The position numbers and the translations under genes are program-made. From positions 1 through 64,000 of the forward strand of contig JAUCBJ010000118.1 of NCBI GenBank assembly GCA_032718475.1: a DNA stretch of 64,000 nt. The letters are read 5' to 3'. How positions within the stretch are numbered: the stretch's first letter is position 1; every line of letters begins with the position of its first letter. Source of the DNA: Nemertoderma westbladi. Its lineage: Eukaryota > Animalia > Xenacoelomorpha. The notes under the pieces are model-generated. The model worked only from the letters and a program-made list of their open reading frames with translations, searched no databases and was not told where the DNA came from. Shown one piece after another: positions 4,914 to 22,724 of the stretch.

Positions 4914-5095
4914 AACGACGACGTGGCCACCAACTACACACATATACCCTCCCTCGATATTATATTATATTATATCGATTGCCAACTCAACGATTTAGCC
5001 CCCGCTAGCTAGCGCTACTCCTCGACGGCTGTCACCAACCTCCTAGTATGATACATGAAATTCCATTCCGTTCCAGCTACGTGTATACGAGCATT
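4914..5095 (+). repeat. Polinton left TIR (imperfect, truncated)
   Basis: AACGACGACGTGGCCACCAACTAC, ATATTATATTATATCGATTGCCAACTC, CATGAAATTCC and GTATACGAGCATT match, in order, the reverse complement of 22567-22724. Confidence 0.85.
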
Positions 5096-5326
5096 AGTGA
5101 TTATTATTATTACGCAATAATTTTTGTTTAAACTGCATTTCCCTACCGGCTAATCAACCAATCAATAAACCGAATTTAGGCTATTTCTCAGTTTAAGACC
5201 TGTATTATTTTTGAAAATATCTTATATATATAATCTCTTGCTTTAATCACAATTAATCATTTGTAATGGTTTTAGTTTAAAAGTTTTTACTTTGTTTGTT
5301 TGATTTACAATAAAATAAATTAAATA

Positions 5327-5749
5327 ATGTCTTCTGATTCCGATATGGTTATGCCAATAGTAAGGCATTCATTTTTTGCAGAAGATGGTCAAACCTATAT
5401 TGTTATTGATTATACAATTTACCGTCAGGGAGATGATAAATATAAAATTGAGTTTTCTGAAAAAGCCAGGAAAGTTTTAAGCTCAATTGATATTGATGCT
5501 TCTGATAATAGTTTTCATCTCTTAGATTACAACCTGAAAGTTGAGCATGAGGGAAAATTAATCAACATCTTACTATTATCCATGATAGAGGGGTTTATTG
5601 TTATTACACAATACAACGAAGCTGGTGAAAAGTTTGAAATACGGCTAAATCGGCATAGCCCCTACGAAATTATGTCTTTCTTTATTGTAATGATTTCAAA
5701 AGAATCCTTTATCGAACCTGAAGAATCAACAGATAATGTTGAATATTGA
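5327..5749 (+). CDS. Hypothetical Polinton protein (140 aa)
   Basis: ATG-initiated ORF with globular composition, first gene inside the left TIR; no motif recognised. Confidence 0.6.
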   Translation: MSSDSDMVMPIVRHSFFAEDGQTYIVIDYTIYRQGDDKYKIEFSEKARKVLSSIDIDASDNSFHLLDYNLKVEHEGKLINILLLSMIEGFIVITQYNEAGEKFEIRLNRHSPYEIMSFFIVMISKESFIEPEESTDNVEY

Positions 5750-5937
5750 TAATATCATTGATTCTTGACTTTTCCCTCTATATTATAAATATTTTATGAT
5801 TATTTTTAAAATTTTAATGTTTTTAAATAATCGAAAATTGTAGTAGTAATTGTATATACAGTATAACAGATTTGTTTGTTGTTGTTGTTGTTGTGTATTG
5901 AGGTAATTATTTTCAATTTACTTTAAAATTTGGAAAA

Positions 5938-6390
5938 ATGGATATTTTAAATGAACAATGTCCAGTTTGCTATTCTAAGTTATTGCAACAACATCGAGAT
6001 TATTATAAATGTGAAAATAAACATGCAACTTGCGTACAATGTATTGTACAATATTCCGAAATGAATAATTATTGTTCTAAAATTTGTCCTATTTGTCGCG
6101 CACCCATATCTAAGTTTAATATAAAGTTGGCAAGTTATCAACCCTATTATTGGAAAGAGCTTCGAAATATAACTTATATTTCTGCGGAAAGTAATGATCC
6201 GGGAGATTTATTTACAATATTGGAGAATATTTTTTATAGAAATGTAGTACGACGGTGTTGCTACTATATTCCTTATTTTTTTAGCAGCGAACATAAAAAA
6301 ATCATTAGTGCGAAATTCTCGGGAAGTGATTTCCAAACCGCCGATGTTACCTATCATTATTTCGCGTATAAAGATGCTCACCATGCTTGA
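5938..6390 (+). CDS. RING-finger (C3HC4-like) protein, putative E3 ligase
   Basis: CPVC-x13-CENKHATCVQC-x13-CPICRAPI spacing with the typical CPxCR ending. Confidence 0.8.
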   Translation: MDILNEQCPVCYSKLLQQHRDYYKCENKHATCVQCIVQYSEMNNYCSKICPICRAPISKFNIKLASYQPYYWKELRNITYISAESNDPGDLFTILENIFYRNVVRRCCYYIPYFFSSEHKKIISAKFSGSDFQTADVTYHYFAYKDAHHA

Positions 6391-6606
6391 AATTACATCA
6401 GTCTATACTATAATTGGAAATAGCACCTTTTGTTGCAGCGAGCGTCACATACTGTAGTTGTGTCATATGTTAATTAAATATACAGTACTCTAATATTGTA
6501 GTTGCCTCAATTATTGTTATATACATAGTAATGGTGATGGTTTATTGATATTGATATTTATATTATATTATATTGTATTGTTGATATATCTTAATAATAA
6601 TAATAA

Positions 6607-7290
6607 ATGGCTGACTTTAATTCAGGTCCATGTAATTTAAACTTTCAAATGGGAACGAGTATGATAATTTCTGGGCCATCTGGTTCTGGAAAGTCAACCT
6701 TTGTAAGCAATTTAATTAAACACAAGAATGGTTGTTTCAACGAAGCCCCCTTGCGAGTATTGTATTGTTACGGGAGCAATCCCCCGACTATTCCCGGTAT
6801 TACTCACCTTTACAAAGGTTTGCCTGAAAATATAGATAGTTTAGTGAATAGTCGAGATTTATTAATTATAGATGATTTATTAACAGAAACTGAGTCCAGT
6901 ACAGCTTTAACTGTATTGTTTACTAAGGTAGCTCATCATTCCAATATATTTATTTGTTTTATAACGCAAAACATGTTTTACGGTGGGAAGCATAACCGCA
7001 CAAGATCAATTAATAGCCGTACTTTAGTATTAATGAAAAATCCGCGAGACAGTTTATCGGTTTTAAATTTCGCGAAGCAGATGTTACCAGGGCAGACCAA
7101 ATTTTTAGTTGATTCCTATCAAGATGCAACTATTGAACCATTTTCGCATTTCTTAATTGATTTACGACAGGAAACACCCGAACATTTAAGATTTAGATCG
7201 GATATATTTCGTAATCATAATTGTTACATTAAAAATTACATTGACTATAAACGTAGTGAAAATAATAATAATAATAATAATGATAAATAA
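6607..7290 (+). CDS. Polinton DNA-packaging ATPase (A32/FtsK-HerA family)
   Basis: Walker A GPSGSGKS, Walker B LLIIDD, LFTKVAHHSNI..ITQN motif, KNPRD. Confidence 0.93.
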   Translation: MADFNSGPCNLNFQMGTSMIISGPSGSGKSTFVSNLIKHKNGCFNEAPLRVLYCYGSNPPTIPGITHLYKGLPENIDSLVNSRDLLIIDDLLTETESSTALTVLFTKVAHHSNIFICFITQNMFYGGKHNRTRSINSRTLVLMKNPRDSLSVLNFAKQMLPGQTKFLVDSYQDATIEPFSHFLIDLRQETPEHLRFRSDIFRNHNCYIKNYIDYKRSENNNNNNNDK

Positions 7291-7327
7291 TTATTATTTT
7301 GTAACAATTTTCAATAATGTTGCAACA

Positions 7328-7710
7328 ATGAATAGACTTGTGCAGAAATATCGTAACGAACTGGAATTTCTACGCAGCGCTACCCCTCAACAAAGAACTT
7401 ATTTTATAACCATACCGTGAGTAACGAATTAATACGGCTCATTGTAAATACTGCATTAAATGTTCTAAAAGGTAACGTACAATTAACCCCTCATTCATTT
7501 AGAAATATTCGCCGCTATAAGAAGGTATTGAAATCACTCAACCGTAAAACAAAAAATATATCAAGTTACAGAAAAAAGTTAAGCAATCAATCTGGAGGTA
7601 TACTACCATTTCTAATACCCTTACTCGGCATTGGTGCGAAACTCGCCGCGAGTGCCGGTGCCGCCGCCGCTGGAGCAGCTATTGCGAAAAAAATTAACCG
7701 CGGACGGTAA
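7328..7710 (+). pseudogene. Polinton basic virion protein with adenovirus pX-like C-terminus; N-terminus probably frameshifted
   Basis: C-terminal QSGG|ILPFLIPLLGIGAKLAASAG resembles the adenovirus pX GG|ILPLLIPLIAAAIGA cleavage site and amphipathic peptide; upstream MNRLVQKYRNELEFLRSATPQQR (ATG 7328) is in a different frame from 7417-7710. Confidence 0.65.
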
Positions 7711-7934
7711 TAATGGTTAAAACAGGAGTAACATTTAGAAAATTATATTTAGTATCGAGTAAACCGTTAGCTACTGATTTAAAACCTCAAGATATACCTA
7801 GAGTAAATACTACAAAAAGAAAACCCTTTAAAACATCAACTTCAAAGAAAATAATTAAAAAATTTCAGTTGTTCTTACGGTGATGCCCTTTATAAGAGAT
7901 TTGAATATACATATTACTTGCGGTTGTCGAAAAG

Positions 7935-8992
7935 ATGCCACGCAAGATGAAACCAATTTTAAGCCGAAGCTTAGACAAAAAACTGTTAAGAATTTATTTA
8001 GATCCTTCATCCCCCGCGGGATTTGCAAGTGTTGCAAAATTAGCAAAAGCTGCAAACATCAAACCAGCACAAGCCCAGAAATGGCTGAGAGGGCAAAAGA
8101 CATACACCCTTCACGCTCCACGTAGACATCATTATCCAACATCTAAAATATTTACGGGAGGCTTAAAAGATATATATATGATAGATCTGGTGGATATGCA
8201 GCAATATAAATCGCAAAATAATAATTATAACTATATATTAACATGTATTGATGCCTTTAGCAGGCTTGCTTTTGCCTATGGTATGAAAACAAAAAAGGGT
8301 ATTGAAATTATTAGTATAGTAGAATCGCGACTGATCAAGGTTCTGAGTTTCTAAATAAATCTGTAAGGAAATATTTAGATACGTTAGGTATACAGTATTA
8401 CGTAATGTATTCTGTGAATAAGGCGGCTATTGTCGAGAGATTCAATAGAACATTAAAAACAAAGATGTTCAAAATTTTCACGCAACGAGGAAATAATGTT
8501 TGGATTAAAATTTTACCAAAGCTCATTTATGCTTATAATAGGTCATATCATAGGACAATAAAAATGACACCTATTGAAGTTAATAAATTTAATGAAACTG
8601 AATTACTGAATAGATTATATGGGAAATATAAACAGATTAATCATAAGAAAATAAAATTTAAAGTTGGAGATACAGTACGATTATCTATCGCACGTACTGC
8701 TTTTGCTAAAGGCTATCGAGAACAATGGACACGTGAATTATTTATTATTCATCGTGTCAGGTTGGATAGAGTACCAGCGGTAATGTTCGATATTAAGGAC
8801 AGCGCTGGAGCTATAATAAATGGCTCATTTTATTCTCACGAACTCCAAAAGGTCCACCCGAATAGTAATATTTATCTACCAATTGACAAAAATATTGGCA
8901 AACTTAAAGAACGTGTACGCAATGGGAAGAAAGAATATTTAGTCCGATTCATCGGATCCAAGAAACAGTCGTGGGTACAGCATATTCAATAA
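7935..8992 (+). pseudogene. Polinton retroviral-type (RVE) integrase, frameshifted near 8315-8325
   Basis: YLDPSSPAGFAS, YTLH, IDLVDM, TCIDAFSR in the first ORF; ATDQGSEF and VERFNRTLK in the second frame; C-terminal chromodomain-like KEYLVRFIG..SWV. A short deletion separates the halves. Confidence 0.92.
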
Positions 8993-9242
8993 GCTTAGGT
9001 TTATACTGTATATTAATTCATTTTGGTTGCATATGACCGTAATTAATCAATATTAACTCGAATGATATTACTATATCTATAGTTCATCAGCTTTAAATAA
9101 AGCCAGTAAAATATTGATCCCTCGCATATACTGTAGAAGATGCGACAATGAACGTGGTCACAGATGTCTATAATTTAACATTATACTGTACTGTATGTAC
9201 AATGGAGTCAAGTAGAGAGAGAGAGCTTAAATAATAATAATA

Positions 9243-10115
9243 ATGGCCACAGATACATATATCACTCTACTTTCAGATAGCTCATTAAACACTTACCCCA
9301 ATAATAATCCTAGCGAGTTTACTGTTGATTTAGCCGAAGAATTATATATTGGTCCAAACGCTAAAATTTGGCTTGCCGAGCTACAATACCAAGCAACATA
9401 CAGCAATATTACGCTGCAAACTCAAATCTCGCTGTCAATCGGGGTAGATGCAAAAGATGCCAAATTATATTGTTTATTTCCTGGTATGCATAGCTCTATT
9501 CAAGTGATTATTGATGATATAAATAAACTGTTTAATTCTGAAGCGAAATATAGAGATTTCGAATTCATTTTTAATACAAATAATTCTAGAATTAAATTTA
9601 AATTTCCTAAAAAGTTGAAAAAAATACAATTAAGTCTACGTGGTGATTTAATACAAATTCTAGGCTTAAAACCGTTATTGGATCGGAATCATCCGGGTAT
9701 TCCGAATTGGGATATATACAGTACCACTACAGTAGATGAATTAAGCAATATAGAACAGCCGATATTAATTTTAAATTATAGCGGACCAAAAATTTCGGAA
9801 ATTGGCATTTTAGATTTTACAGCTCCCACGAATATAACACGTAATAAAGACACTATTTTTATATATACTGATATTATTAAGAGCTCATTTGTTGGTGACG
9901 CTTTAGCTCCGCTCTTAAGAACCTGCCCTTTAACGCAATTAAATCGAAAATATATTAATCACGAATACGAGAGCATTTGCTATTACCCGTTGTTGAATAA
10001 AAAACTAAAAACAATCTTAATTACTTTACGTGACGGACAAGGCGAATTAATTAATTTTAGCGGAGGTCGCACTGTTATAACACTTAAGTTAATACGCGGT
10101 GGGGATGATGGATGA
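9243..10115 (+). CDS. Minor capsid (penton-like) protein, copy 1
   Basis: N-terminal YITLLSDSSLNTYPNNNPSEFTVDL..LAELQY and C-terminal FIYTDII..VGDALAPLLR..YYPL..ITLRDGQGELINF, typical of Polinton minor capsid proteins. Confidence 0.85.
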   Translation: MATDTYITLLSDSSLNTYPNNNPSEFTVDLAEELYIGPNAKIWLAELQYQATYSNITLQTQISLSIGVDAKDAKLYCLFPGMHSSIQVIIDDINKLFNSEAKYRDFEFIFNTNNSRIKFKFPKKLKKIQLSLRGDLIQILGLKPLLDRNHPGIPNWDIYSTTTVDELSNIEQPILILNYSGPKISEIGILDFTAPTNITRNKDTIFIYTDIIKSSFVGDALAPLLRTCPLTQLNRKYINHEYESICYYPLLNKKLKTILITLRDGQGELINFSGGRTVITLKLIRGGDDG

Positions 10116-10953
10116 ATTCTACGTAAGACTACCAAGTAACTCCTGTCCAATTGATTTTCCCCGCAATAGCGCTAGTAATTATCAGATCAATTTCCATGGC
10201 GCCTTACCTATAAACCCAAACGAAAACTGGGTGGTAGGTATAAAAAGTATATTTTACTTAGCAACGTTGCCGTCCATGTATAACAATGTAGAGAATGTTA
10301 TTTTATTAAAAAAAGGGAAAAAAAATTTTGAGGATACACTTCCATTCGGTTTGTTCTACAGTATCAATGACATTATAGATTATTTTAACACTGGGGCATT
10401 GAAAGATAAATTACAAATAGTTGAAAATACTCAGCAAAATAGGTTGCAATTTATTTTAGGGAAAACTGTGCGAGAGTTATTTATAGGTCAACAATTAGCC
10501 TATTATTTTGGAATTAATGAAAATAATCTCGGCGCGAATTTAAATCCAAATTTTAAAATTATTTTGAAGACGAAAAATAACATAAAGGGTTATTTAATAA
10601 AGGTTATCGGAAATGGAGAAAAAGCTTACCAGATGGTATTTTTATGCCCTCAACCGCCCAATTCTATTCCAGAACCTAAGTCGAACATGTACGTGACTAC
10701 TAATATAATTGAAAATCAATATATTAATGACTTTGGTTTAGCTTTACTTCGTCGTGTTGCGATACCTGATGATGTGAAATATGGTAGCGTAATAAATAAA
10801 GAATTTGTCAAGGATACAATTCATTATATCCCTGTAAAAAAATCATATAAGATAACATACATTCATATTGAAATAACAGACAAAGAAGGAAAAGATTTGA
10901 ATTTTGAATACAGGACAACATCTATTACATTACACTTTAAACAAATAAATTAA
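10105..10953 (+). CDS. Minor capsid (penton-like) protein, copy 2
   Basis: FYVRLPSNSC..FPRNSASNY..WVVGIKSI and MYVTTNII..ALLRRV..HYIPV..IHIEITDKEG..LNF..TSITLHF; paralogous to the preceding ORF. Confidence 0.82.
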   Translation: MMDEFYVRLPSNSCPIDFPRNSASNYQINFHGALPINPNENWVVGIKSIFYLATLPSMYNNVENVILLKKGKKNFEDTLPFGLFYSINDIIDYFNTGALKDKLQIVENTQQNRLQFILGKTVRELFIGQQLAYYFGINENNLGANLNPNFKIILKTKNNIKGYLIKVIGNGEKAYQMVFLCPQPPNSIPEPKSNMYVTTNIIENQYINDFGLALLRRVAIPDDVKYGSVINKEFVKDTIHYIPVKKSYKITYIHIEITDKEGKDLNFEYRTTSITLHFKQIN

Positions 10954-10954
10954 A

Positions 10955-11515
10955 ATGGATTCTGATTTATTTCAAAGATACAGTAAACCTCAATATGGTG
11001 GTGCCGACTCTAATCTTGCTGTTTTTAAAGGTGGTAGAAGTACGAGAGGCTCGACGCAAGTTCCTGTTTTTAGAGGTGGTTCATATATTGACCCTTACGG
11101 TCAACAAATTGGTGCATTTGGTCCAAACTTAAAACAACGTCGTTTTCAGCGTTATCGTAGAGGTATGCAGGCAAATCAACACGGAGAAGGTATATTTACA
11201 GACGCTTTATCGACATTGAAAAAATTTGGTAAGCCATTAGCTAAAAAAGTTTTACAAAAAGCTTTACCATTTACCACAAAATTTATGAGACAACACGTAA
11301 TACCAAAAGGTAAGCGGGTCTTACATCAGCAGGCTAATACGGTTATTAATAAAGCATTAAATAAAATGAAACCGTCAACAAGGTCAGTTGTAGAAAAAGT
11401 TTATAGAGAGTTAAAGCGACCCGCTAGACCATTGTCTATGAACATACATCATCGACGTAGTAAAAAGAGAAATATAAAAGGCAAACTGAAACACTGCGAA
11501 AAAAGTATTTTTTAA
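10955..11515 (+). CDS. Basic core/membrane-active virion protein
   Basis: Arg/Lys-rich, repeated xGG candidate protease sites (QYGG, FKGG, FRGG), QHGEG followed by an amphipathic helix IFTDALSTLKKFGKPLAKKVL; sits immediately before the MCP. Confidence 0.65.
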   Translation: MDSDLFQRYSKPQYGGADSNLAVFKGGRSTRGSTQVPVFRGGSYIDPYGQQIGAFGPNLKQRRFQRYRRGMQANQHGEGIFTDALSTLKKFGKPLAKKVLQKALPFTTKFMRQHVIPKGKRVLHQQANTVINKALNKMKPSTRSVVEKVYRELKRPARPLSMNIHHRRSKKRNIKGKLKHCEKSIF

Positions 11516-11517
11516 TA

Positions 11518-12742
11518 ATGTCAATTATTAAGGAATTAGATTTATTTTCTATACAGCCAATACAGACTGAATTTAAAGCAAAGCATTATGAAACAATTTA
11601 CCCCATATCTAATCTCGGAAGTGAGTCTAGGGAAGTCACGTTCCTTGTACCGAGATCCAATGAATTCTATACGAAACTGCAAGATGCGTTATCAATTACA
11701 AAATGTACTGTACGGTGGGATAGACGACTTGAAAATTCCCATATATATATGCTGAATTACCCTGCTGAAACTATGTGGAGTGATATTAAAATAGACCTTA
11801 ATGAGAAGCAGGTTGAAAATAGCAATAACCATTATTTCTACAAGTCGTACTTATCCAATTTATTATTTACAACTTACGAGGATAAAAATGGGCTACTGGG
11901 TGCGGGTGGCTTTCATTAGCCTTTATCTGAACACGGAAATGAAATTGACCCCGGCGCGCATCCTATTGGCGATGCCTTTAGTAAACAAATGCAATTTGTA
12001 AGTGGATTGACGATTGATTTTGATACTGAAAGCAAAATAATACAACCCGGGTATGATTTAAGAATGCATTTTAGAAAAGTATCAAATTCGTTTATTTTTA
12101 AAATCACTCCAAATGCAAACGCGGTGACAAATCTTCGGCTAGAATTAGATGAAATAAAGATCCTAATCCCTAGAATGGAGGTTAATCCGGTAATAGAAAG
12201 CAGTCACCTAAAAGGTTTAGACAGTTACAACATTTACTATTCCCGCTCAAACCACAAATTATACCCAAACAAACATATTTGATGGTAAAAAACCCAAATT
12301 AGTTATTATCGGCTTCATAACAAATAACGCTTATTCGGGAGAATTAATTAGCAATCCCTTGAAATTTGAACATTTTAATCTTAGACGCGCGGAACTGATT
12401 GTAGACGGTCTTCCAGTAGGTGGTGTAATATACGAGCCTAATTTTACAGATGGAACATATATTTTTGAGTATACTCAATTAATGAACAACATTAATACAT
12501 ATATTAACGGTTATGGAGGTAATAATATAGACCATGAAACCTACTTAGGTAATTGTCCCCTCCTATCCTGGGACTTAACCGCCGATGGCTATGTTAGAGA
12601 TCCGCAACCGTCAATATATACTAACGGCCAATTAAAATTAAGATTTGCCGAACCGTTGGTTGAAACCATAAATGTAATCGTTTTTAATATTTATGATCAA
12701 TCATTAAGTTTAAATAGTAGGAAAGAAATACATATCGATTAA
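11518..12742 (+). pseudogene. Major capsid protein (double jelly-roll), disrupted
   Basis: KELDLFSIQPIQT..YPISNL, YFYKSYLSNLL, NIFDGKKPKLVIIGF..NAYSG..NPLKFEHF, LKLRFAEPL; in-frame TAG at 11917-11919 and a frameshift/deletion near 12240-12270. Confidence 0.88.
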
Positions 12743-12744
12743 GT

Positions 12745-13199
12745 ATGTTATCTACTGAGGACCTTGATATGTTTCCAGTGGGTGGTCACTATTTGGGTGC
12801 GTTTCCAGCTAATAAATTACCTAAATTAGATAATAATAATAAGCGGAGAGATTATGGGTTAATAGTAAATACCGATAAAGAGCATCTGCCCGGGATTCAT
12901 TGGATCGCAATATATATACGAGATAATGAGGCTGAATTATTTGATTCATTCGGATCAAAATATCCAAACAGATGCATCGAAAAATGGCTTGAGAAAAATT
13001 CCGCAAGATGGCGTACTACTCGCAAACAATTTCAAGACCCAAGGAGGACCACATGCGGCCTATACTGTCTTTATTACTTGGTAAATCGAATTCACACAAA
13101 CTATCCAATGAGTGCTTTACAAATAATGTGGAAATAAATGAAATAATATTATATAAATGGCTTGTTAATTATTATAAAATAAACCAACAAGCGTTGTAA
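12745..13199 (+). CDS. Adenain-like cysteine maturation protease (C-terminus probably frameshifted; called ORF ends 13137)
   Basis: YLGAFPANKLP, IVNTD..PGIHWIA (His), FDSFG (Asp), QFQ, TCGLYC (Cys); a plausible tail FTNNVEINEIILYKWL lies in the overlapping frame ending 13199. Confidence 0.9.
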
Positions 13200-13230
13200 T
13201 TAATCATTTAGCTTTTGTTTATCAGATAAA

Positions 13231-13833
13231 ATGGATAATATTATTTTTGTTGATTTTCAATATTATAAGATAGACAATAAAGAGTATCCGGTAGTATTTA
13301 AAGAATTTGCTATATTCGATTCTAATTACACCAAAACTAATGTAAAGACGTTTTTAATTAAAGGCCCACCTAATATTAAGTTATCAGCTTTAGATGTAGC
13401 TCACGTAAACAATTTACGATTCATGACTTCTCATTTGCCCTGGGACTACGGTGACATTTCGCAAGATGACTTTAAAAAATATATGAAGAGACATTTAAAA
13501 TATAAAAAAAATATACATGTATTTGGGTTGATGAAGCGGGCAATATTAGTTTCCCAACTCGATGTTCTCGTGCCAAATTCGGTGGAGAAATTGGGAATAT
13601 ATAAGCAATATCATGATTATTTAACCCCCTGTCGCTTCCACGATCAATTTACTACAGTAGAAAATAAATGTGCATTCCACTTAAACATAAAGGATAACTG
13701 TCTGCGGTATTGCTCAGCAAAACGCGTTGGGGGGTATGAGATGCTACACTTTTTCATGAGAAAGCGTTTAACTGCGACTGATGATGATAAACAGAAAGAA
13801 ATAACTGCGGTGGAAGATGTACTCATACTGTAA
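13231..13833 (+). CDS. Polinton accessory protein, possible DEDD/DnaQ-like exonuclease fold
   Basis: IIFVDFQ..VFKEFAI..FLIKGPP..HLPWDYGDI pattern resembles ExoI-like starts of an uncharacterised Maverick family; Cys/His cluster at the C-terminus. Confidence 0.55.
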   Translation: MDNIIFVDFQYYKIDNKEYPVVFKEFAIFDSNYTKTNVKTFLIKGPPNIKLSALDVAHVNNLRFMTSHLPWDYGDISQDDFKKYMKRHLKYKKNIHVFGLMKRAILVSQLDVLVPNSVEKLGIYKQYHDYLTPCRFHDQFTTVENKCAFHLNIKDNCLRYCSAKRVGGYEMLHFFMRKRLTATDDDKQKEITAVEDVLIL

Positions 13834-13871
13834 GTTTAACTGCGGTGGAAGATGTACTCTTACAGTAGGTT
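13802..13871 (+). repeat. 35-bp tandem duplication spanning the stop codon
   Basis: TAACTGCGGTGGAAGATGTACTC(A/T)TAC(T/A)GTA(A/G)GTT twice. Confidence 0.9.
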
Positions 13872-14431
13872 TACTCTAAGCTTGTAATGTGATGGGATAA
13901 TATATTTGTTTTAATGTCAATAAAAAATAATAAAAACATTAAAATCTTTTTTTATATCGCTGTTTACACTCACAAACACACCACACCTACCGGTAGCCCT
14001 CTGTTGTATCAGAGTTTAACTACCAGTAGCTAGCTGAATTTACACATACAGACATATAGAATGGCAGAATGGCGCCCTTCTAGACTATCAGCAACCACAA
14101 GGTTTTAGCATTACTTACTAAATTAACTCAACATGGAGGGTTCGTGAATGCTGCATTAGAGAGGCCCTCCTAACAATAGGCCTACTGGTACCGATGGCCC
14201 TGTAGCCCTCTTCCAACTGTATACCGGTACTTGAGGATAGAGCAAGGGCATACCGGTTTCTTTGATTTAAGGATTACACTATTACACTTGAATGCTTCCA
14301 ATTTTCTGTTTACAACTTTAATTGGTCTAATCTACATTACTGCGGGCTATTACTGTCGCATAGGTAAGCCTATACAGCTATAGTTAACTTTATGGGGGGC
14401 CCTTTTTCGAATGTTGACCCAATATGGTTTA

Positions 14432-14812
14432 TGGTTAACCTTTAGTACTCGCGGATAGGTAAGGTACACTTTCATTCGGTTAGGCATATAGGCCTAATGA
14501 CTACTCCTCAACTGAAAGTTGACTAGCTCATTGATACAATAGGTGTGGTTAGGTACCGGTAGGGCTATAGGTCCTATAAAATCCCCTCGCACTCTCTGTT
14601 ACTAACTTTCTACATTCACTCTATGTTGTATGCTTCTTTACAGTTAACCTTTAGAACTCTTGGTTAGGGGCGCCATCATTCAACCAGTCATATAATAGCT
14701 CCACTCGGATACAATAGGTGTGGCTCGCGGTATACCTAACTAAGCCTATATAAAATCCATCCCATTCTCTGTTACTAACATTCACTCTATGTTGACGGGG
14801 GACTATATAAAA
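14432..14812 (+). repeat. Diverged ~180-210 bp tandem duplication with TATA-like boxes in the central intergenic region
   Basis: GTTAACCTTTAG, GATACAATAGGTGTGG, CTATA(TA)AAATCC, TCTCTGTTACTAAC and ACATTCACTCTATGTTG each occur twice in the same order. Confidence 0.75.
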
Positions 14813-14968
14813 CATAGTTAATTTATTTATGTATTCGCTTTTTTTTAAATTATATATAAAATAGGTTCGGTCTACTAAGTTTTATAAGCAACAATAACTG
14901 ATAACAATAACAATAACAACAACAATAACAACAACAACAACACTAAATTTATTACTGTATTATACTTT

Positions 14969-15388
14969 TTATAGTCCTATATGTGGGTCCCTCAGTGGAG
15001 TTTCCTCCATTACCGGTACCTGTAAATGGTTGTTTATAGGCCTAACTTCTACCGGTCTTTGTGTTGGTATATCGAAGTGAAGCGTATTATCAACATCATT
15101 CTCCCAATTTTCGCTAGAGGGTGAGCTTCCCGATATTCGCGATGGTTGTATCTTTATATCAAGTGTGAAATCTTTTGAAATTTCAACCTTTGTAGGCGAT
15201 AAAGGTAGACCATCTACTTGACCTACTCCATATTCTACCGAAGTAAACCCGATCTCAAATTTTTGGTTTATATATCGCAACTCCATCTCAGCAATATTGG
15301 ATGCTGAGAGATATGTTTCGTCGCTTGATTGCAATTCGATTTTGATACAACTTTTCAACTCTCGGTTATTGAAAAAGGCGAATGTCAT
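14969..15388 (-). CDS. Hypothetical Polinton protein (139 aa; may be a last exon)
   Basis: ORF at the end of the minus-strand block; no motif recognised. Confidence 0.45.
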   Translation of the reverse strand: MTFAFFNNRELKSCIKIELQSSDETYLSASNIAEMELRYINQKFEIGFTSVEYGVGQVDGLPLSPTKVEISKDFTLDIKIQPSRISGSSPSSENWENDVDNTLHFDIPTQRPVEVRPINNHLQVPVMEETPLRDPHIGL

Positions 15389-16068
15389 CTTCGAGTCGAG
15401 GTAAGTTGTCGTCGTCGTCGTAACTAGGTACCGGTAAGAATATCTTTAAATTGAATAGGTAGGCCTACTGATATTTTTTTCTTCTTTTGTTTAACAAAAT
15501 TATAGTTCACTGTCAGAAAAATTGAGTTTATATATATTTTTGTAGAGGGTCGCAGATGTGTACATTACAAAATTCTCATAGTTAACAAAATGCACAACAT
15601 AAACCTTTCCCAGGCGGATTAGCGATATATGCTCTGTTTGTTGTTCTATTCTGAATGTAGGGAGATGCCTAGCCGATGTTTTAATGATATGTACCGGTAT
15701 ACAGACTAGTAACAGATAGGAGGGCATCGTCTTTGACTATGAATACCAGCACATAGCCCTAATCTTTTCTCACCGAGCTTAGCGTTGCCCGCCGCACTCA
15801 CGCACACTCATAAGTAACAGATGCGCTATTGTAACTCACTCGTGAGCAACAATGCCAAGTTAGCTAGCTAGCTACAGCCCCTGAGTATACTATGCCTACT
15901 TGAGTGTTACAAGCAGCAATCGCACTACCGAAGTTAATTTCCCCTCAAACTAGTTGTTGATTTTAAAAAAATATTCATAATTTTTTTCCAACCAATTTAA
16001 TATATATATATTTTACAGTAAAAATCTCCACCACCAAACAGCAACAACAACAATAAATTTCACTCACA

Positions 16069-16617
16069 CTAATTATATTTTACAACAAAAACCCTCGCAC
16101 CAAACAATAATAAATTATTAACCAGTTTGTTGAATATAGGGTAATATATATGAAATTTAAACGGGGAACACATTAATGTACATTTACCGGTGTAGAAGCA
16201 GCAAACAACAACATTATTATTTATTCTGACTTTACAGTTATTGAATATTTCAGGTTCATATATAACTTGAAGTTGCACATTATCAAAGACAACATAAAAC
16301 CCGGTATTGTTTATCAATAACCTATAGACTACAGACTTAATACTAAAAATATAAGTACATAAATTAACAGATTTTAAAATCAAATTAATACTAGTTTTAT
16401 CAAATATATGCTTTTTTACTTTTTGGAAATTATACTTACTGCCTAATAATGTAATACGACCATTTTTAAATATTAATAATGTGGCACCAAATATCTTATA
16501 TATAAACTGATTTGGTTTGAGTATGTGTTTACCAGATAATTGATTTTTTAATTCTTTAAAATTAATCGCTAACACTTGCTGGCAACTTACATTTTTATTT
16601 ACTATTTGATAATTCAT
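16069..16617 (-). CDS. Divergent TATA-box-binding protein (TBP)-like protein
   Basis: Two-repeat TBP core: YQIVNKNVSC..INFKEL, ATLLIFKNGRITLLGSK (cf. TALIFSSGKMVCTGAK), YEPEIFN (cf. YEPELFP), VVVCCFYTGKCTL (cf. VLLIFVSGKVVL). Likely ATG at 16617 overlaps the pPolB end; ORF track starts at 16647. Confidence 0.8.
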   Translation of the reverse strand: MNYQIVNKNVSCQQVLAINFKELKNQLSGKHILKPNQFIYKIFGATLLIFKNGRITLLGSKYNFQKVKKHIFDKTSINLILKSVNLCTYIFSIKSVVYRLLINNTGFYVVFDNVQLQVIYEPEIFNNCKVRINNNVVVCCFYTGKCTLMCSPFKFHIYYPIFNKLVNNLLLFGARVFVVKYN

Positions 16618-19600
16618 CACCAATACCATCGTCTTTTGGTTCTTCATAAATTGGTATATTTGATATTTTTATAGGTTTTTTGAGGTTTGTTTTATAGTGC
16701 CCCCAAGGAAGCGAATGATTTTTATTAACCCAATAAAGTTTATCGTCAAAGCTACTGAGTGCAAATTTATTTTGCTTTAAGGTATAAATACGATGTAATT
16801 TAGATTGACATCTGTGTATGTTTTTTTTTATTTCTTCATTTGAGTTATATGCTTTTAAATATTCTTCATGTGTAATATTCGTTTCCACAACAGCTCTTGT
16901 AATACCTTTTGCTCTACGAATATTTTTGTTATTCCATTCCAAAATTGAATATAATTTTGTTCTTAAAAATACTGCTTGTTTAATTTCATGTGAGGCTAGT
17001 TCGTCTTTACAGTAATAGAGTTGGGATTTATTTTTATCGCTGTAGAGAGGGTGATCCTTAGGGTAATTGGAAGTATCTAAAATATTATTTTTAATTAATG
17101 CTTTTAAAAAATTATTCTGTGATGTATTATAATAACAACCTATTAAAGAGTCAGTGTCTGATGCAGAAATTTCAATACGACAGTTTAATTCTTTCTCAAT
17201 AGGTAGCAATTTATTGTAAAACAGCTCATACATATCCAATTTAGCCAAGTCCAACACAGCGCTACCAATAAATATAGGCTTATTGAGAGTTACAGAGTCT
17301 TTCACTAATAAATGTCCCGATAATGTATTATTGTATATTATAAATTGTTCATGATTAATACGATTTACCAATTGATCGCATTTATCGTTGCTATTTGCGA
17401 TACAAAAGTTACATCGATCTCTTATCTTTTCTATTGATTTGCCAAACAGTGAATTATTGAGCAATTTCGCGACAGCAGTTTCAATGTAACTTTTTGCTAG
17501 GCGCCTTTGATTAATATTAAAATCTATATAATTTTTAAATACAAATTCTTGTTGAAAAGAATATAATTTATGTAGTTTAGTAACAATTAATCCATGTTTT
17601 ATATAAAATTTTAACAGTTTCAAATGTAAATGATAAAACTCTTTATCAAATTGCGTCAGCAAGAGTTTTGGTGTAGACATCCTATATTTACGGGAGGTAC
17701 CTTTTTGTATCGATAAATTATTAAATTGTTCCCTCATATAAGGTGAAAGCATTGATTCATTTATACTTAAATGCTCTGGAGCTAACGGTAATTGTAATGT
17801 TTGATCGTGAATAGCTTTAGGATAATTTAAATCACATATTAAAAAATATCCAGTAGATCCATCAATGTCTAAATCTACCAAGTACTCGATTAGTTTTTCT
17901 GGAATTGCATTCTCTAAATGTTTAATACTTACTTCTTTGAATTGCGAGGTGGGTAGTTTTTTACTTAAATTCCCTGAATATAAAGAGTTGAAATCAATAT
18001 TAAAAATATGGCATTCTTCCTTAGTAGAATCATATGTACTTGTTCCTGGTATATTTGATTCTATATAATGCTTTCGACAAAATGAAACACCACCCCTAAT
18101 TGATTTTTCAAAATCTCTATATGTCTGATAATCCTTTATTAATTCTATTTTACATTTATTATATTTTAGTGCGCAATCATAGGTAAATGACTTGATACTA
18201 CAGTAAAAAACCACTTCTAAATCGTAATTTTGTTTACAAACATTCCTAAAATTCTCAAATATATCAGCAAGCAAACAAACATCGAGTTTTAAATAGGCTA
18301 AAAGATAATCTTTGAGATTCACACAGTCGAATTCAACCCATGATAATTCCGCAAACCTATAATCTTCTATTGTACATGTTTTTTGACTTAAGTTACTAAA
18401 AAAATTATTTATAGATGGCAAACTAGTATCATTAAATTTATTAATATCTGTCAAGTACTCGTATGGAAATACTCCTTTCCGTTTAATTGTTGAGTTATTC
18501 AAGTTTGGATAAAAATATTTCATTTCTTGTAGAGTAATAGGTAAAATTGAGCTTATATCATGACTCGCTACATCCTTTGTTGAACACTCAACTAAATTAC
18601 TTAAAGAAAAGCTTAAAAATTGATATGTGTCCAAGAAACGTAACTCAATTTTTTTAGAAGTGTTTTTAATTGGGATAAATACACTCGGTGAAATATATCG
18701 TTCTGTATTTCTCGGTATAACCTTTATATCCCAATCTGTGTATTTCTTATCTCTAAATCCGGTTTGTAATATACAATGTATATCGTAGTTGTTGGAATTG
18801 TGCCCGCAAAGTACATACAGGTATCGTTTCAATGATAAACTTCGGTTACAACTATTACAGGCTGCCGCAATATATTTACCTGTAATATGTGAATGATGTC
18901 TGTTTTTCCCAACATTATTATTTAAAGTAACATTACAATAGAAACAGAATTTTGCTTGTTCAAAATTTACAAAATCAATATTAGTAAATGACATGGTTTT
19001 ATGAGTGTATATATCTGACCAACAACATAATTCAGTTAAATCAGTATATAATGAATCTAAGAAATCTTGAATACAATTATTATTATTATTATTTGTCGTT
19101 AAAAATGTTTTCAAATGACATTTTGGTGGGTCAATTAATTCAGTATTGGGAACAATTAAATAACTCACAGCACACGGTATATGCTCCTGTATAAATTGAT
19201 TATTAACTGAAGGTTGTAAGATACATTCTATATCAAAGTAGGTGACAAACAATGGGGATAAGGTTCTATCTAAATTTGTAAAACTGATGTGTGTTCTTTT
19301 TTTATTAGGTAGTTTCTCGCGCTGACTTCTTCCTTGGTAGCATACGAGACGGTGTCTATGAAGAACTTCCGCTCGAAAAAAATGAGCCAGGCACCTTTCA
19401 CAAAATTGCCTACCTCGGGTATGAAGAGCTCTCGTATTCAGCAATCGATTCAAGTTAGTTATGCAAACATAATGATTCAGTTTAGGTACATTGTTATTTT
19501 TTACTACAAGTAATATATTTAATAACTGTTTATCAGGTGTAATTTTACTAAACGGAGGTTGTCTTAATATAGATACAGGAGTGTGTTTGTTGTCGTTATT

Positions 19601-20659
19601 CCAACATAGTAAATTAATTATATATTTTGAATTTTGTTTTTCAAAAAGTTTAATCGCTAACTGCCACTCTGTTGGATAATATTTGTTCCCATTGTCAAAA
19701 ATGATATGACTCATATAATTTTTGTACAATGAAGTATGGTTTTTGTTGTTTTTCACTTTGCTACCAAATTTTGCGGATATAATAGCCCATTTGAAACAAT
19801 CATTATCAGCTGTTTGTATATTTATTGTACATTTTTTAGCTGATAAAGCCTTAGGTAATTCCATATATCCATGCCCCTTATATAGTAACGACCTAAACTT
19901 AGATTCAGCTAATTTAATTTCAACCCTTAATAAAGATTTAATACGCCACCCCGAACCACGTGTGTTAAAGATGGCTATTTTTTGTAATATATTTCCCAGC
20001 ACATACTCAAACCATGTGTCAAAACTTTGCGGCGAATCTACAGTATTAATAGCACCACCGGAAGAATTAAAATAAAAGGTTTCCAATTGCTCGCCTTCTG
20101 AAAAATGTGATCTGTACATTAATACATTTAGACCTAACCACAGTCTAAGAACATTCATTTCTTTCAATCTATCTAATATTAACTGAAGAATATTACCTCG
20201 AATTTGTGCTAAAGCTGTTTCTACATCGGGATAATCTCTAGAAGTTGGGAGGTCGTGGACATAAATTTCAAGACGATTATCGTGAGCTTCTTGTTCCCGC
20301 GTAAAAATTGTTGCGCATGTACCAAGAGCCACCCTTAAGTTTTTTCTGGATATTATATTTTTATGTTGCGGAAATTTACGCTTTCTTGTGTAGTAACATT
20401 TCAAGTGACAGTCGTGTCGTATATAATTCTCATATGTATACTCTTTATTACAGGTAGAACAAGTCAATTGATAGGTGCGGAACTCCATTTCTTTACAACC
20501 AGTAGTTGATTCATGTCGTTTACAAATTTCGCTGCATGAAGTCACGACATGACACTTAAAACAAGAATAACCTTCAAAATGTGACCATAGGTGGCGTAAG
20601 TAATTATGTCTAGTTACATTCATATGACAGAATGAACAACATATTGTTATTTTATCCAT
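16595..20659 (-). CDS. Protein-primed family B DNA polymerase (pPolB), intact, 1354 aa
   Basis: ExoI YFDIE, ExoII HNSNNYD, ExoIII YLKLD; Pol A DFNSLY, B KLLNNSLFGK, C SDTDS; KGVFPYEY; N-terminal C2H2-like fingers, vOTU-like DNDCFKWA...NHY, EndoVII/HNH-like insert CFYC..RHHSHITGKY..CNSCN. Confidence 0.97.
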   Translation of the reverse strand: MDKITICCSFCHMNVTRHNYLRHLWSHFEGYSCFKCHVVTSCSEICKRHESTTGCKEMEFRTYQLTCSTCNKEYTYENYIRHDCHLKCYYTRKRKFPQHKNIISRKNLRVALGTCATIFTREQEAHDNRLEIYVHDLPTSRDYPDVETALAQIRGNILQLILDRLKEMNVLRLWLGLNVLMYRSHFSEGEQLETFYFNSSGGAINTVDSPQSFDTWFEYVLGNILQKIAIFNTRGSGWRIKSLLRVEIKLAESKFRSLLYKGHGYMELPKALSAKKCTINIQTADNDCFKWAIISAKFGSKVKNNKNHTSLYKNYMSHIIFDNGNKYYPTEWQLAIKLFEKQNSKYIINLLCWNNDNKHTPVSILRQPPFSKITPDKQLLNILLVVKNNNVPKLNHYVCITNLNRLLNTRALHTRGRQFCERCLAHFFRAEVLHRHRLVCYQGRSQREKLPNKKRTHISFTNLDRTLSPLFVTYFDIECILQPSVNNQFIQEHIPCAVSYLIVPNTELIDPPKCHLKTFLTTNNNNNNCIQDFLDSLYTDLTELCCWSDIYTHKTMSFTNIDFVNFEQAKFCFYCNVTLNNNVGKNRHHSHITGKYIAAACNSCNRSLSLKRYLYVLCGHNSNNYDIHCILQTGFRDKKYTDWDIKVIPRNTERYISPSVFIPIKNTSKKIELRFLDTYQFLSFSLSNLVECSTKDVASHDISSILPITLQEMKYFYPNLNNSTIKRKGVFPYEYLTDINKFNDTSLPSINNFFSNLSQKTCTIEDYRFAELSWVEFDCVNLKDYLLAYLKLDVCLLADIFENFRNVCKQNYDLEVVFYCSIKSFTYDCALKYNKCKIELIKDYQTYRDFEKSIRGGVSFCRKHYIESNIPGTSTYDSTKEECHIFNIDFNSLYSGNLSKKLPTSQFKEVSIKHLENAIPEKLIEYLVDLDIDGSTGYFLICDLNYPKAIHDQTLQLPLAPEHLSINESMLSPYMREQFNNLSIQKGTSRKYRMSTPKLLLTQFDKEFYHLHLKLLKFYIKHGLIVTKLHKLYSFQQEFVFKNYIDFNINQRRLAKSYIETAVAKLLNNSLFGKSIEKIRDRCNFCIANSNDKCDQLVNRINHEQFIIYNNTLSGHLLVKDSVTLNKPIFIGSAVLDLAKLDMYELFYNKLLPIEKELNCRIEISASDTDSLIGCYYNTSQNNFLKALIKNNILDTSNYPKDHPLYSDKNKSQLYYCKDELASHEIKQAVFLRTKLYSILEWNNKNIRRAKGITRAVVETNITHEEYLKAYNSNEEIKKNIHRCQSKLHRIYTLKQNKFALSSFDDKLYWVNKNHSLPWGHYKTNLKKPIKISNIPIYEEPKDDGIGDELSNSK

Positions 20660-20845
20660 GTTGAAGTTTGTTTAGATAAATAATAATAATAATAATAATA
20701 ATAAAATATGTCCAAAGATTAAAATAAAATGAAATGATATGATATTGACTATATCTAAACATTTATATGCTAGCGAGGGAAATAATTTTAAACCAATCAC
20801 CAATCGCTTATGGCTATTGGAAACCACAAAGAGTTTAACTTATGA

Positions 20846-21916
20846 TCATGGGCTCATGTAAGAATAATAATCAGGTTTCCATGGAGAATTAGTAACTGGA
20901 TCTACTGGAACTAGCTGACCGACAACTTTCTGTTTCTTTGCAGGTGATGCGTTGGTTAATTTACTCGATGATCTTGGCTTCCGAGGTAATATTTCAGGAA
21001 AGACCTGTTGCGGTTGAGAGCAACTCTCTTCAACATCCGGATTAGGTGATGGGATCTCTACGAATGCTTTAGGTTTATCCAAAAGGACAAAACCGTCAAC
21101 ACGGGCTTCAGTAAGAGAAACGCCATCCATCGATTCTTTGAGAAAACTAATATGGGCTTTATCATTCAAGTAATGCAACTCGATAGAATTTCCACCGGCA
21201 CCTACTTCAGTAGAATTATCGGTGTTGGTGATAATAATTTTTTTATTATTGGTTTTAATCATTTTGAGCCGGTCTGATAATTGAATGATATTTTTATCAA
21301 AAAGATGCTTGTCTGTTTCATCGACTTGGTTGTCCCACTCTCGCAACAAAACGGTTAGTTCCTGTTTTGACAAATTGAAACCCGTATAATAGTTAAAACC
21401 AACACTATCAGCGTATCTGATGCTGATTTTCCATAAGCCAACATAGTTGGTTCCTTTAAAAGCTGTTACAAATCCAATAAACTCTGGATTTGATAATTCA
21501 ATGTAGAATTGATCGCTAATAATCTCTAGCGGTGGAGAGAGAAATTGCAATAATTTCCCTCTGTATTGAATTAGAACTTCAGTAAAAGCTTTGTTGAGAA
21601 CTTTACATTTGCCTTGTTTCTGAACGTAAACATCACCCGATGTGGAGTTGATGGAAATGTTCAAATTTCCCCGCGCAAAACGAAGAGTTGGATATATCCT
21701 ACCTGGTATAATTGCTGGTCTGGATTGATGTTGGTTGTTGTTGGTTGTTTCTAGAATGTCTAACAAATAGCGGGTATCTTGATGGGAAAAACAAATTGAT
21801 TCGTTGTCCTCCTGAGATTCCACAATAAAATACTTGCTGTGAACGGCGGTACAAGTATATTTATTGTAAGTAAATTTCCAGCTATTTGCTGCTCCGGTTT
21901 TTTGCGTTAAGGCCAT
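20846..21916 (-). CDS. 356-aa protein with a PC4/Sub1-like ssDNA-binding domain and C-terminal NLS
   Basis: aa ~136-200 GFVTAFKGTNYVGLWK...TGFNLSKQELTVL aligns by eye to PC4 YVSVRDFKGKVLIDIRE...KGISLNPEQWSQL; SPAKKQKV NLS-like motif in a disordered tail. Confidence 0.55.
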   Translation of the reverse strand: MALTQKTGAANSWKFTYNKYTCTAVHSKYFIVESQEDNESICFSHQDTRYLLDILETTNNNQHQSRPAIIPGRIYPTLRFARGNLNISINSTSGDVYVQKQGKCKVLNKAFTEVLIQYRGKLLQFLSPPLEIISDQFYIELSNPEFIGFVTAFKGTNYVGLWKISIRYADSVGFNYYTGFNLSKQELTVLLREWDNQVDETDKHLFDKNIIQLSDRLKMIKTNNKKIIITNTDNSTEVGAGGNSIELHYLNDKAHISFLKESMDGVSLTEARVDGFVLLDKPKAFVEIPSPNPDVEESCSQPQQVFPEILPRKPRSSSKLTNASPAKKQKVVGQLVPVDPVTNSPWKPDYYSYMSP

Positions 21917-21976
21917 AATAATAATAATAGTAAATACGAAAAATATTACAAGTGATAAATTTTAAACCGTATCGCT

Positions 21977-22273
21977 GTAATAAATTGACACCATAGTTCT
22001 CACTCTAAAATTGTGTTGGTCGGAAGACGACGCCTGATAAAAATGATGCTGAGTTCGACATTAGGTATCGACTCAAAAACAAAAATCGGGTGAGACATGT
22101 AGCTCAGATTTTCGTTTTTAGGTCGATACCCAATGCTGGAATCAGTATCATTTTATGTGGTGTCGTTTTCCAACCAATGAATATACAACGAGTAAGATAA
22201 TGTAGAAATTATTAAGGAAATAACACAATTTCAGAGTGAGAACAAAAAATGAGATATGGTATCAATATATTAC
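21977..22273. other. Long imperfect hairpin flanked by 22-bp direct repeats
   Basis: 22016-22087 pairs with 22107-22177; 21996-22017 with 22222-22243; 21977-21995 with 22255-22273; ATTACAAGTGAT(A/G)AATTTTAAA at 21945-21966 and 22281-22302. Confidence 0.85.
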
Positions 22274-22566
22274 CATGAAGATTACAAGTGATGAATTTTA
22301 AATAAAAACATTCAGTTATATAAGTTTCTGAATATGTGATGTGGCATAGTCAACGTAGAAGAGATGGGATGTGGCATAATGGACGAATAAGAAAAGAGAT
22401 GGGTTGCAATGTGGATAGGAAATACGTGAAAGAATATGAATCATAGGGTTGTGTGTAATAATAATCAATAATTATAATAAAAACGCACAGTATAATGTTA
22501 GTAGTAGTAGCCTTTCAATATGGCACAGATGCTGAGGGATCGGTTAGCTTGAGTAACTACTATGGA

Positions 22567-22724
22567 AATGCTCGTATACGTGTAGTTGACACGAGGCGGA
22601 ATTTCATGCACATGTATCGTACTGAGTGGTTGGTTTGTTGGTTTGGCGACGGCTGTCGTGGAGTTGGCAATCGATATAATATAATATATGCTCGATGCGA
22701 GTAGTTGGTGGCCACGTCGTCGTT
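22567..22724 (-). repeat. Polinton right TIR (portion matching the left TIR)
   Basis: Reverse complement of blocks in 4914-5095. Confidence 0.85.

What the first reader, a model, noticed from the sequence alone, without database searches (positions are those of the whole stretch)
5938..21916. Candidate viral transcription/host-control kit: TBP-like + PC4-like + Zn fingers + RING + vOTU
Seen: the minus-strand block reads PC4-like > pPolB (N-terminal C2H2-like fingers, vOTU-like Cys/His) > TBP-like; a RING gene sits near the left TIR. Known: host PC4 is a Pol II coactivator acting on the TBP/TFIIA preinitiation complex. Inference: two preinitiation-complex mimics flanking the polymerase could form an early cassette that switches on the convergent virion block after replication, an arrangement I do not recognise from described Polintons.
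Basis: inference. Interest (0 to 1): 0.78.

Follow-up and report, generated by a model that had tools for sequence, protein, structure and literature searches.

The report
Polinton with its own TATA-binding protein
A virus-like Polinton transposon carries a divergent TATA-binding protein gene that is under selection and likely helps switch on its particle-building genes, while the other pieces of the proposed 'kit' are routine polymerase parts, a separate ubiquitin-ligase-type gene and an unproven, likely DNA-copying, single-strand-binding protein.

Summary
Window 4914-22724 is a decayed copy of a multi-copy Polinton/Maverick. The TBP-like gene (16069-16647) is real. It passes the Pfam cut-off, models as a TBP saddle, keeps four intercalating Phe and the TFIIB-contact glutamates, and varies mostly at third codon positions. 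The RING is real. The vOTU Cys/His are invariant in 36 of 36 related polymerases, so they are standard, published parts. PC4 identity of the 356-aa ORF is plausible but not significant.

The 'kit' is not supported. Among 108 related loci, TBP occurs in 2 and PC4 in 2 others, never together; most loci are fragments.

One relative, L072, has a TBP with the same indels as the window's. It carries CATAAAC upstream of 7 of 12 genes, in the slot where relatives without a detected TBP have TATAA. No private box was established in the window itself.

Best reading: a one-protein viral promoter factor that works with host TFIIB and Pol II, plus a separate replication SSB. A TBP in a small linear DNA virus is named in one published figure legend. 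This scan noted TBP-bearing Polintons before on other DNA.

The parts
4914..5095 (.). Left arm of a diverged terminal inverted repeat; true terminus and target-site duplication not found
   Evidence: blastn 72-79% identity to 22567-22724
5327..5749 (+). 140-aa ORF, no family
5938..6390 (+). RING-HC (C3HC4) protein, predicted E3 ligase accessory gene
   Evidence: pattern at aa 8-53; zf-RING_2 18.1 bits, below cut-off 27.3
6607..7290 (+). Packaging ATPase (A32/FtsK type)
   Evidence: Pfam P-loop hits; E down to 3e-49 to ATPases of related loci
7328..7883 (+). Two small basic core-like ORFs; the first is interrupted
   Evidence: sequence; core role is inference
7935..8992 (+). Retroviral-type integrase, broken into two ORFs between about 8320 and 8405
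9243..10953 (+). Two tandem minor-capsid (penton)-like genes (9243-10115, 10105-10953)
   Evidence: similar to ORFs in the matching position of related loci, E to 9e-17; penton label from typical Polinton order (recalled)
10955..11515 (+). Basic core-like protein
   Evidence: role is inference from composition and position
11518..12742 (+). Major capsid gene, broken into three ORFs
   Evidence: pieces match ~440-aa ORFs of related loci; stops listed; MCP label from position and size
12745..13137 (+). Adenovirus-type maturation protease
   Evidence: Peptidase_C5 23.6 bits > 21.3
13231..13833 (+). 200-aa ORF with weak relatives in L053 and L072; exonuclease-like label is recalled, untested
14969..15388 (-). 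139-aa ORF, no family
16069..16647 (-). Divergent two-repeat TBP; its 5' end overlaps the pPolB 3' end by 53 nt; TATAAAA boxes 27 and 50 nt upstream of its ATG
16595..20659 (-). [quoted passage not shown]
   Evidence: 192 homologues
19445..19850 (-). vOTU domain of pPolB (Cys288, His396); boundaries approximate
   Evidence: 36 of 36 conserved
20405..20638 (-). Three N-terminal C2H2/C2HC-like fingers of pPolB (aa 8-85)
   Evidence: sequence; variable among homologues
20846..21916 (-). 356-aa ORF with three predicted strand-strand-strand-strand-helix units and a Pro/Lys-rich tail; aa 149-205 (21302-21472) PC4-like, unproven
21977..22273 (.). Long imperfect hairpin upstream of the 356-aa ORF
   Evidence: z = -9.4, 0 of 100 shuffles as stable
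22567..22724 (.). Right arm of the terminal inverted repeat

Best explanation
This Polinton encodes a real, selected, reshaped TBP that likely binds TATA-type boxes in front of its virion genes and likely recruits host TFIIB and RNA polymerase II, whereas the 356-aa protein is likely a separate single-stranded-DNA-binding replication helper and the vOTU, zinc fingers and RING are standard or independent parts. Shown: TBP fold and key residues, purifying selection, a second Polinton (L072) with a TBP carrying the same indels and a non-standard CATAAAC box in the TATA slot, and independent occurrence of TBP and PC4 genes. Inferred: host TBP first transcribes the pPolB-TBP strand (canonical TATAAAA upstream of the TBP gene); the element TBP then takes over virion promoters, so late genes need less host TFIID; the PC4-fold protein coats the displaced strand during protein-primed replication; vOTU releases the terminal protein; the RING is a host-modulating E3.
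For: TBP identity: Pfam above cut-off. The sole phmmer hit among 1.84 billion representatives, P0001, is itself a TBP. Model pLDDT 73.8; VIA Z 10.4-13.7 for the 38 TBP entries, next 6.5. F48, F60, F135, F151, E131, E133 and N17 are kept; human E286 in this stirrup is the TFIIB contact (PMC3287176, passages). Selection: 23 of the 40 listed variable sites are third-position (p=0.0014), 17 of 23 in codons 46-192 (p=8e-5), and none alters a first or second base of 13 key codons. Window and L072 TBPs share spacings of 19 and 23 residues where 61 of 61 database TBPs have 24 at their first matched repeat, and group at SH-aLRT 89. L072: CATAAAC 11 times on the sense strand of the virion block, 0 on the antisense or polymerase strands; 7 of 12 genes, six at -36 to -73; empirical p 0.003-0.007. 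Loci without a detected TBP have TATAA mostly at -39 to -56: L084 4 of 9, L100 4 of 7, L099 3 of 3. Independence of TBP and PC4.
Against: No private box was established in the window. The best candidate, ANATACAT, lies before 5 of 10 virion genes with empirical p 0.013 in one of six settings (0.13 and 0.37 in the other two 8-mer settings), at scattered distances of 19-100 nt. Plain TATAA lies before 7 of 10 against a background of 0.36 (p 0.03, post hoc), so host TBP could serve. L103 (TBP+) shows no significant k-mer. In L072, 4 of 11 boxes overlap a stop codon and AATAAA is rare there, so a 3'-end signal is a rival. Only 21 of 49 columns conserved in TBPs are identical in this protein; the second Asn, both central Thr and Pro136 are replaced. 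The TBP model was folded with an alignment of TBPs, which biases it. The tree was the quick one, with very long branches. The site table showed 40 of 84 rows, best-supported first. L075 (2 of 7) and L036 (2 of 6) show no significant TATAA. PC4 fold unproven.
Confidence: 0.5

Rival explanations
1. One reading: TBP-like and PC4-like proteins act together as pre-initiation mimics in an early cassette around the polymerase.
For: Both flank pPolB on one strand in this element. Earlier scan notes report other elements with both genes (unchecked). Host PC4 is a transcription cofactor (PMC7549692, passages).
Against: No co-occurrence in 108 loci. L072 and L103 have TBP with no PC4 hit among all 18 and 13 ORFs scanned; L084 (14,319 of 14,868 nt) has PC4 and no TBP. 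The TBP position differs in L072. The first-repeat loop is five residues shorter and its conserved Glu-Tyr is replaced; that this is the TFIIA side is recalled. PC4 identity is not significant.
Confidence: 0.12
2. The element TBP is a decoy or general booster: it soaks up TFIIB or TBP inhibitors (NC2, Mot1/BTAF1, TAF1) or supplies extra TBP on ordinary TATAA boxes, without a private promoter code.
For: The TFIIB glutamates are kept while several DNA-reading residues are replaced. Window virion genes mostly have TATAA-type boxes. A TFIIB- or DNA-defective TBP acts dominantly in mouse cells (PMC3287176, passages).
Against: All four intercalating Phe are kept. The relative with the same TBP indels has a specific non-standard box in the TATA slot.
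Confidence: 0.25
3. The TBP fold is reused for DNA replication or packaging: it bends AT-rich terminal or origin DNA and works with pPolB and the ssDNA-binding protein.
For: The gene overlaps the pPolB 3' end. TBP-like folds occur in replication initiators (4cwe, Z 6.3).
Against: In L072 the gene sits among virion genes. The TFIIB-contact residues are conserved. TBP is undetected in 106 of 108 loci with the same polymerase type.
Confidence: 0.08
4. The TBP is a captured host gene decaying as a passenger.
For: Extreme divergence (at most 28% identity). This copy has broken integrase and capsid genes.
Against: Open frame, third-position bias, the listed insertions within the gene sum to three in each run that shows them, and a relative with shared indels.
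Confidence: 0.05

Closest known systems
Polintons/Mavericks (adintoviruses, MELD viruses; PMC8502044, PMC11161782, PMC8097293)
   Same: Inverted repeats, pPolB with vOTU, rve integrase, packaging ATPase, protease, capsid genes in two convergent blocks.
   Different: Carries a TBP gene. In the papers read, TBP appears only as a label in a figure legend on MELD viruses with adintovirus-like PolB (PMC8502044 Fig. 5, in the section on non-animal datasets), with no function or promoter analysis. VLTF3 is the transcription factor reported for some polintoviruses (PMC11131425, passage).
Beta/gammaherpesvirus viral TBP (KSHV ORF24, EBV BcRF1, HCMV UL87) with the TATTWAA late box (PMC12529657)
   Same: Viral TBP mimic with four intercalating Phe and an altered DNA-reading face; a variant box before structural genes (seen in L072).
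   Different: The herpes protein is large, binds Pol II directly, needs five partner proteins and lacks the TFIIB acidic residues. This one is a bare 192-aa core that keeps them, and no partners were found.
Cellular and giant-virus TBP (PF00352)
   Same: Two-repeat saddle, YEPE stirrup.
   Different: At most 28% identical; shorter loops in both repeats; second Asn, two Thr and the specificity Pro replaced. The element encodes no RNA polymerase or TFIIB.
PC4-like fold family (PC4/Sub1, Pur-alpha, T5 PC4 homologue; PMC7549692)
   Same: Predicted four-strand-plus-helix units, three in tandem as in Pur-alpha; weak motif likeness to the PC4 of Polinton L084.
   Different: No significant sequence match; the model is low-confidence.

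Membership tests
Polinton/Maverick | Protein-primed PolB with intact catalytic motifs | tested here: met
Polinton/Maverick | rve integrase | tested here: met
   present but broken
Polinton/Maverick | Packaging ATPase, protease, capsid genes | tested here: met
   capsid labels rest on similarity to related loci and position
Polinton/Maverick | Terminal inverted repeats with target-site duplication | tested here: inconclusive
   diverged arms at 72-79%; termini and duplication not found
TBP (PF00352) | Two-repeat saddle fold | tested here: met
TBP (PF00352) | Four intercalating Phe | tested here: met
   F48, F60, F135, F151
TBP (PF00352) | TFIIB-contact acidic stirrup | tested here: met
   E131, E133
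TBP (PF00352) | Both base-reading Asn, both central Thr and the Pro after the third Phe | tested here: not met
   only N17 kept; alignment near residue 100 is uncertain
TBP (PF00352) | Binds TATA DNA and supports initiation | not testable with these tools
   needs biochemistry
Herpesvirus-type viral pre-initiation complex | Variant late box before structural genes | tested here: inconclusive
   clear in L072, not established in the window or L103
Herpesvirus-type viral pre-initiation complex | Large vTBP with Pol II-binding domain, lacking TFIIB residues | tested here: not met
   192-aa core only, glutamates kept (PMC12529657)
PC4-like (PF02229) | Significant profile match | tested here: inconclusive
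   E=0.23; 66 of 2000 shuffles as good
PC4-like (PF02229) | Four-strand-plus-helix fold | tested here: inconclusive
   model pLDDT 35.9; 7 of the top 50 VIA rows are PUR/Sub1/T5-PC4 chains at Z 3.9-5.2, within noise
PC4-like (PF02229) | ssDNA binding | not testable with these tools
   needs assay
RING-HC E3 | C3HC4 ligand spacing | tested here: met
   Pfam score below cut-off
vOTU of pPolB | Catalytic Cys and His | tested here: met
   36 of 36; assignment to vOTU by position, after PMC11161782

The most novel reading that the evidence does not exclude
A lineage of Polintons has a one-protein late switch. Each family carries a minimal TBP whose DNA-reading face has co-evolved with a private TATA variant (CATAAAC in L072; possibly NATACAT here, matching the lost position-1 proline), and it plugs into host TFIIB and Pol II. 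These would be natural orthogonal TBP-promoter pairs and a convergent, much simpler version of the herpesvirus late complex.
Probability: 0.4. Interest if true: 0.8.

Novelty: new variant of a known kind. Interest (0 to 1): 0.58.

Why it matters
I found no description of how Polintons time their virion genes in the papers searched, and whether animal Polintons make particles is argued mostly from selection (PMC8097293). A small, selected, element-encoded TBP, with a variant box in a relative, gives a direct handle: one protein and a few upstream regions can be tested in reporters, and natural TBP-box pairs would show how TBP specificity can be rewired. The wider 'host-control kit' adds little, since its other parts are standard or independent.

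Tried and rejected
No whole genome is held, so sibling families in the host could not be compared.

356-aa ORF: no homologue among 1084 candidates. No Pfam family, whole or in parts. Atlas hits under 0.9 and unrelated. Nothing useful in PDB sequences, phages, PHROGs or BFVD. No significant internal repeats. Complex prediction for two copies of residues 128-225 gave no answer, score 0.00; it is not used as evidence.

Direct scans of viral contigs with the window's pPolB and TBP, the Polinton TBP alignment, L096 PC4 and the PC4 alignment found nothing. PF02229 was found in 0 of 7 searchable viral records; 21 were not held.

No RNA holder was listed. X5 is only guessed to be RNA, and contigs cannot show expression or start sites.

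Promoter motifs rejected or left open in the window: shared exact k-mers, TACAGTA (as common outside the element), CATAAAC, TATAAG and TTAAG.

The careful TBP tree did not finish; only the quick tree was seen.

Literature: 'polinton + TATA-binding' 5 papers and 'polinton + PC4' 1 (irrelevant), 'maverick + PC4' 6 (5 listed, irrelevant), 'polintovirus + TBP' 0, and 'maverick/polinton/TATA-box binding/late promoter' 6, none on this by listing and abstract start. Text searches of six Polinton or small-virus papers found no TBP or PC4; one search found no TATA or PC4; one supplement of PMC8502044 had no hit. bioRxiv supplements and figure images could not be seen and may name TBP genes.
Full report
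The element. ORF and repeat scans show a 17.8-kb, AT-rich unit between diverged inverted repeats at 4914-5095 and 22567-22724 (72-79% identity). The plus strand carries a packaging ATPase, an rve integrase, two penton-like genes, a basic core-like gene, a capsid gene and an adenovirus-type protease. The minus strand carries a 356-aa ORF, a 1354-aa protein-primed polymerase with 192 homologues, the TBP-like gene and a 139-aa ORF. Integrase, capsid and one small core gene are interrupted in this copy. Contigs of three probable DNA runs cover all 30 bins with thousands of diverged pieces in two of them (26,605 in X1, 8,310 in X3, 490 in X4), so this is a multi-copy family; depth is no copy number and X1 may be the source sample. 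The host is a eukaryote and probably an animal (named polymerase homologues are from mites, insects and anemones); that is inference.

TBP is real. It passes the Pfam cut-off with two stretches. A full search of 1.84 billion representatives gave one hit (E 3e-4), a 171-aa protein that matches solved TBPs at E 1e-28. A model built on 61 database TBPs (62 of the 120 listed rows were hand-picked for length and diversity, counting the query) matches only TBPs at the top and viral TBPs in BFVD; the alignment biases that model. Of 49 columns at least 80% conserved, 21 are identical, including all four intercalating Phe, both stirrup glutamates and the first Asn. The second Asn, both central Thr, the Pro after the third Phe and the first-repeat Glu-Tyr are replaced. 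PMC12529657 (passages) states that the four Phe bend DNA and that this Pro favours T at TATA position 1; PMC3287176 (passages) identifies the C-terminal stirrup Glu as the TFIIB contact. Variants among related copies fall at third codon positions in 23 of the 40 listed sites (44 more not shown), and in 17 of 23 in codons 46-192. Codons 1-45 show no such bias.

vOTU, fingers, RING. Cys288 and His396 are invariant in 36 of 36 aligned polymerases (37 rows picked from 120 listed). PMC8502044 (passages, section 10) reports an OTU domain on both adintovirus PolB classes, and PMC11161782 (passages) proposes that it cleaves off the terminal protein. N-terminal C2H2-like fingers occur in 12 of 36 homologues. 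Both are polymerase features, not a separate host-control module. The RING has full C3HC4 spacing but lies on the other strand 10 kb away. It has no homologue in the 108 loci; an unrelated RING was seen in L028, which has no TBP hit (230 of 745 candidate ORFs were scanned with Pfam).

PC4. The motif at residues 149-205 resembles the PC4 domain of Polinton L084, and hhalign places the three-domain profile exactly there (52 columns, 35%), but at E 0.23; 66 of 2000 shuffles score as high. The single-sequence model is poor (pLDDT 35.9). It shows three four-strand-plus-helix units, and PUR/Sub1/T5-PC4 chains make up 7 of the top 50 structural rows at Z 3.9-5.2. I put a PC4-type fold at a little better than even. 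PC4-fold proteins are general single-strand binders with roles in replication as well as transcription (PMC7549692, passages). A strand-displacing protein-primed replicon needs such a protein (established knowledge of phi29 and adenovirus, recalled).

A TBP profile over all 8,322 six-frame ORFs hit 2 of 108 loci, L072 and L103, both confirmed by Pfam. PC4 was found in L096 and L084, and a profile built from them found no further locus (a weak profile). No locus has both. L084 is nearly complete and lacks TBP; L103 is nearly complete and shows no PC4; L072 lacks about 4 kb of its contig; L096 is a fragment. Only 36 loci reach 10 kb. In L072 the TBP gene precedes the ATPase in the virion block. 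The numbers are small, but all point to independent assortment.

Promoters. Earlier scan notes (AI notes, not evidence) reported variant boxes in TBP-bearing Polintons, which led me to look. In L072, whose TBP shares two shortened loops with the window's (19 and 23 residues against 24; SH-aLRT 89 in a quick tree with long branches), CATAAAC was seen by eye and then tested. It is the top 7-mer, with empirical p 0.007 (6-mer 0.003, 300 random sets). It occurs 11 times on the sense strand against 0 on the control strands, and precedes 7 of 12 genes, six at -36 to -73. Elements with no detected TBP have TATAA in that slot (L084 4 of 9, L100 4 of 7, L099 3 of 3; weaker in L075 2 of 7 and L036 2 of 6). 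Against this: 4 of the 11 overlap stop codons and 7 lie near gene ends, so a 3'-end signal is possible, though two sites have no gene ending close before them. In the window no box is established. ANATACAT reaches p 0.013 in one of six settings with scattered spacing, four earlier exact-word settings gave p 0.13-0.67, and TATAA precedes 7 of 10 genes at background 0.36. L103 shows nothing significant.

Mechanism. Host TBP likely transcribes the minus strand first (TATAAAA at -27 and -50 of the TBP gene). The element TBP likely then binds virion-gene boxes, bends DNA with its four Phe and recruits host TFIIB and Pol II. The 356-aa protein likely coats displaced single strands, vOTU likely processes the polymerase, and the RING likely modulates the host. 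Binding, timing and expression are untested. Confidence 0.5; decoy or booster 0.25; joint kit 0.12.

Known and new. The element is a Polinton. The protein works like the herpesvirus viral TBP but fails that family's architecture. In print I found TBP only as a label in a MELD-virus figure legend (PMC8502044 Fig. 5; preprint 10.1101/697771, passages); the figure itself could not be seen. The searches listed under Tried and rejected found no paper on Polinton TBP function or on Polinton PC4. Papers seen only as search listings or abstract starts are not relied on. This scan noted similar elements in seven earlier notes on other DNA. Verdict: observation partly confirmed, kit not supported, TBP real and worth testing; new variant of a known kind, interest 0.58.

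Noticed in passing
window 21977-22273: About 300-nt imperfect hairpin just upstream of the 356-aa ORF (z -9.4), no second copy in the window; a small inserted element or a regulatory/origin structure.
   Followed up: partly
L072:11153-18662: CATAAAC repeated 11 times on the sense strand of the virion block of a TBP-bearing Polinton; 4 overlap stop codons.
   Followed up: yes
L103:8426-8911: A third, differently shortened Polinton TBP; TTAAG before 5 of 12 genes (p 0.035, post hoc).
   Followed up: partly
L096:6229-6849 and L084:12439-13191: Polinton PC4 genes: a tandem double PC4 (53.9 bits) and a single PC4 with an AT-hook-like tail (18.3 bits, below cut-off).
   Followed up: partly
L072:13037-13486: 150-aa ORF without a family that by eye could be an OB-fold single-strand-binding protein filling the slot of PC4; untested guess.
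   Followed up: no
L029:5447-6085: VLTF3-like late transcription factor in another related element: a different solution to late transcription.
   Followed up: no
window 48526-50478: Intron-free 650-aa sulfate transporter plus STAS domain gene amid repeats.
   Followed up: no
window 33338-36416, 43446-44132, 58982-59572: THAP/P-element-like transposase pieces, a Pao retrotransposon piece and a histone-domain ORF.
   Followed up: no
window 9243-10953: Two tandem penton-like paralogues where related loci show one matching ORF.
   Followed up: no
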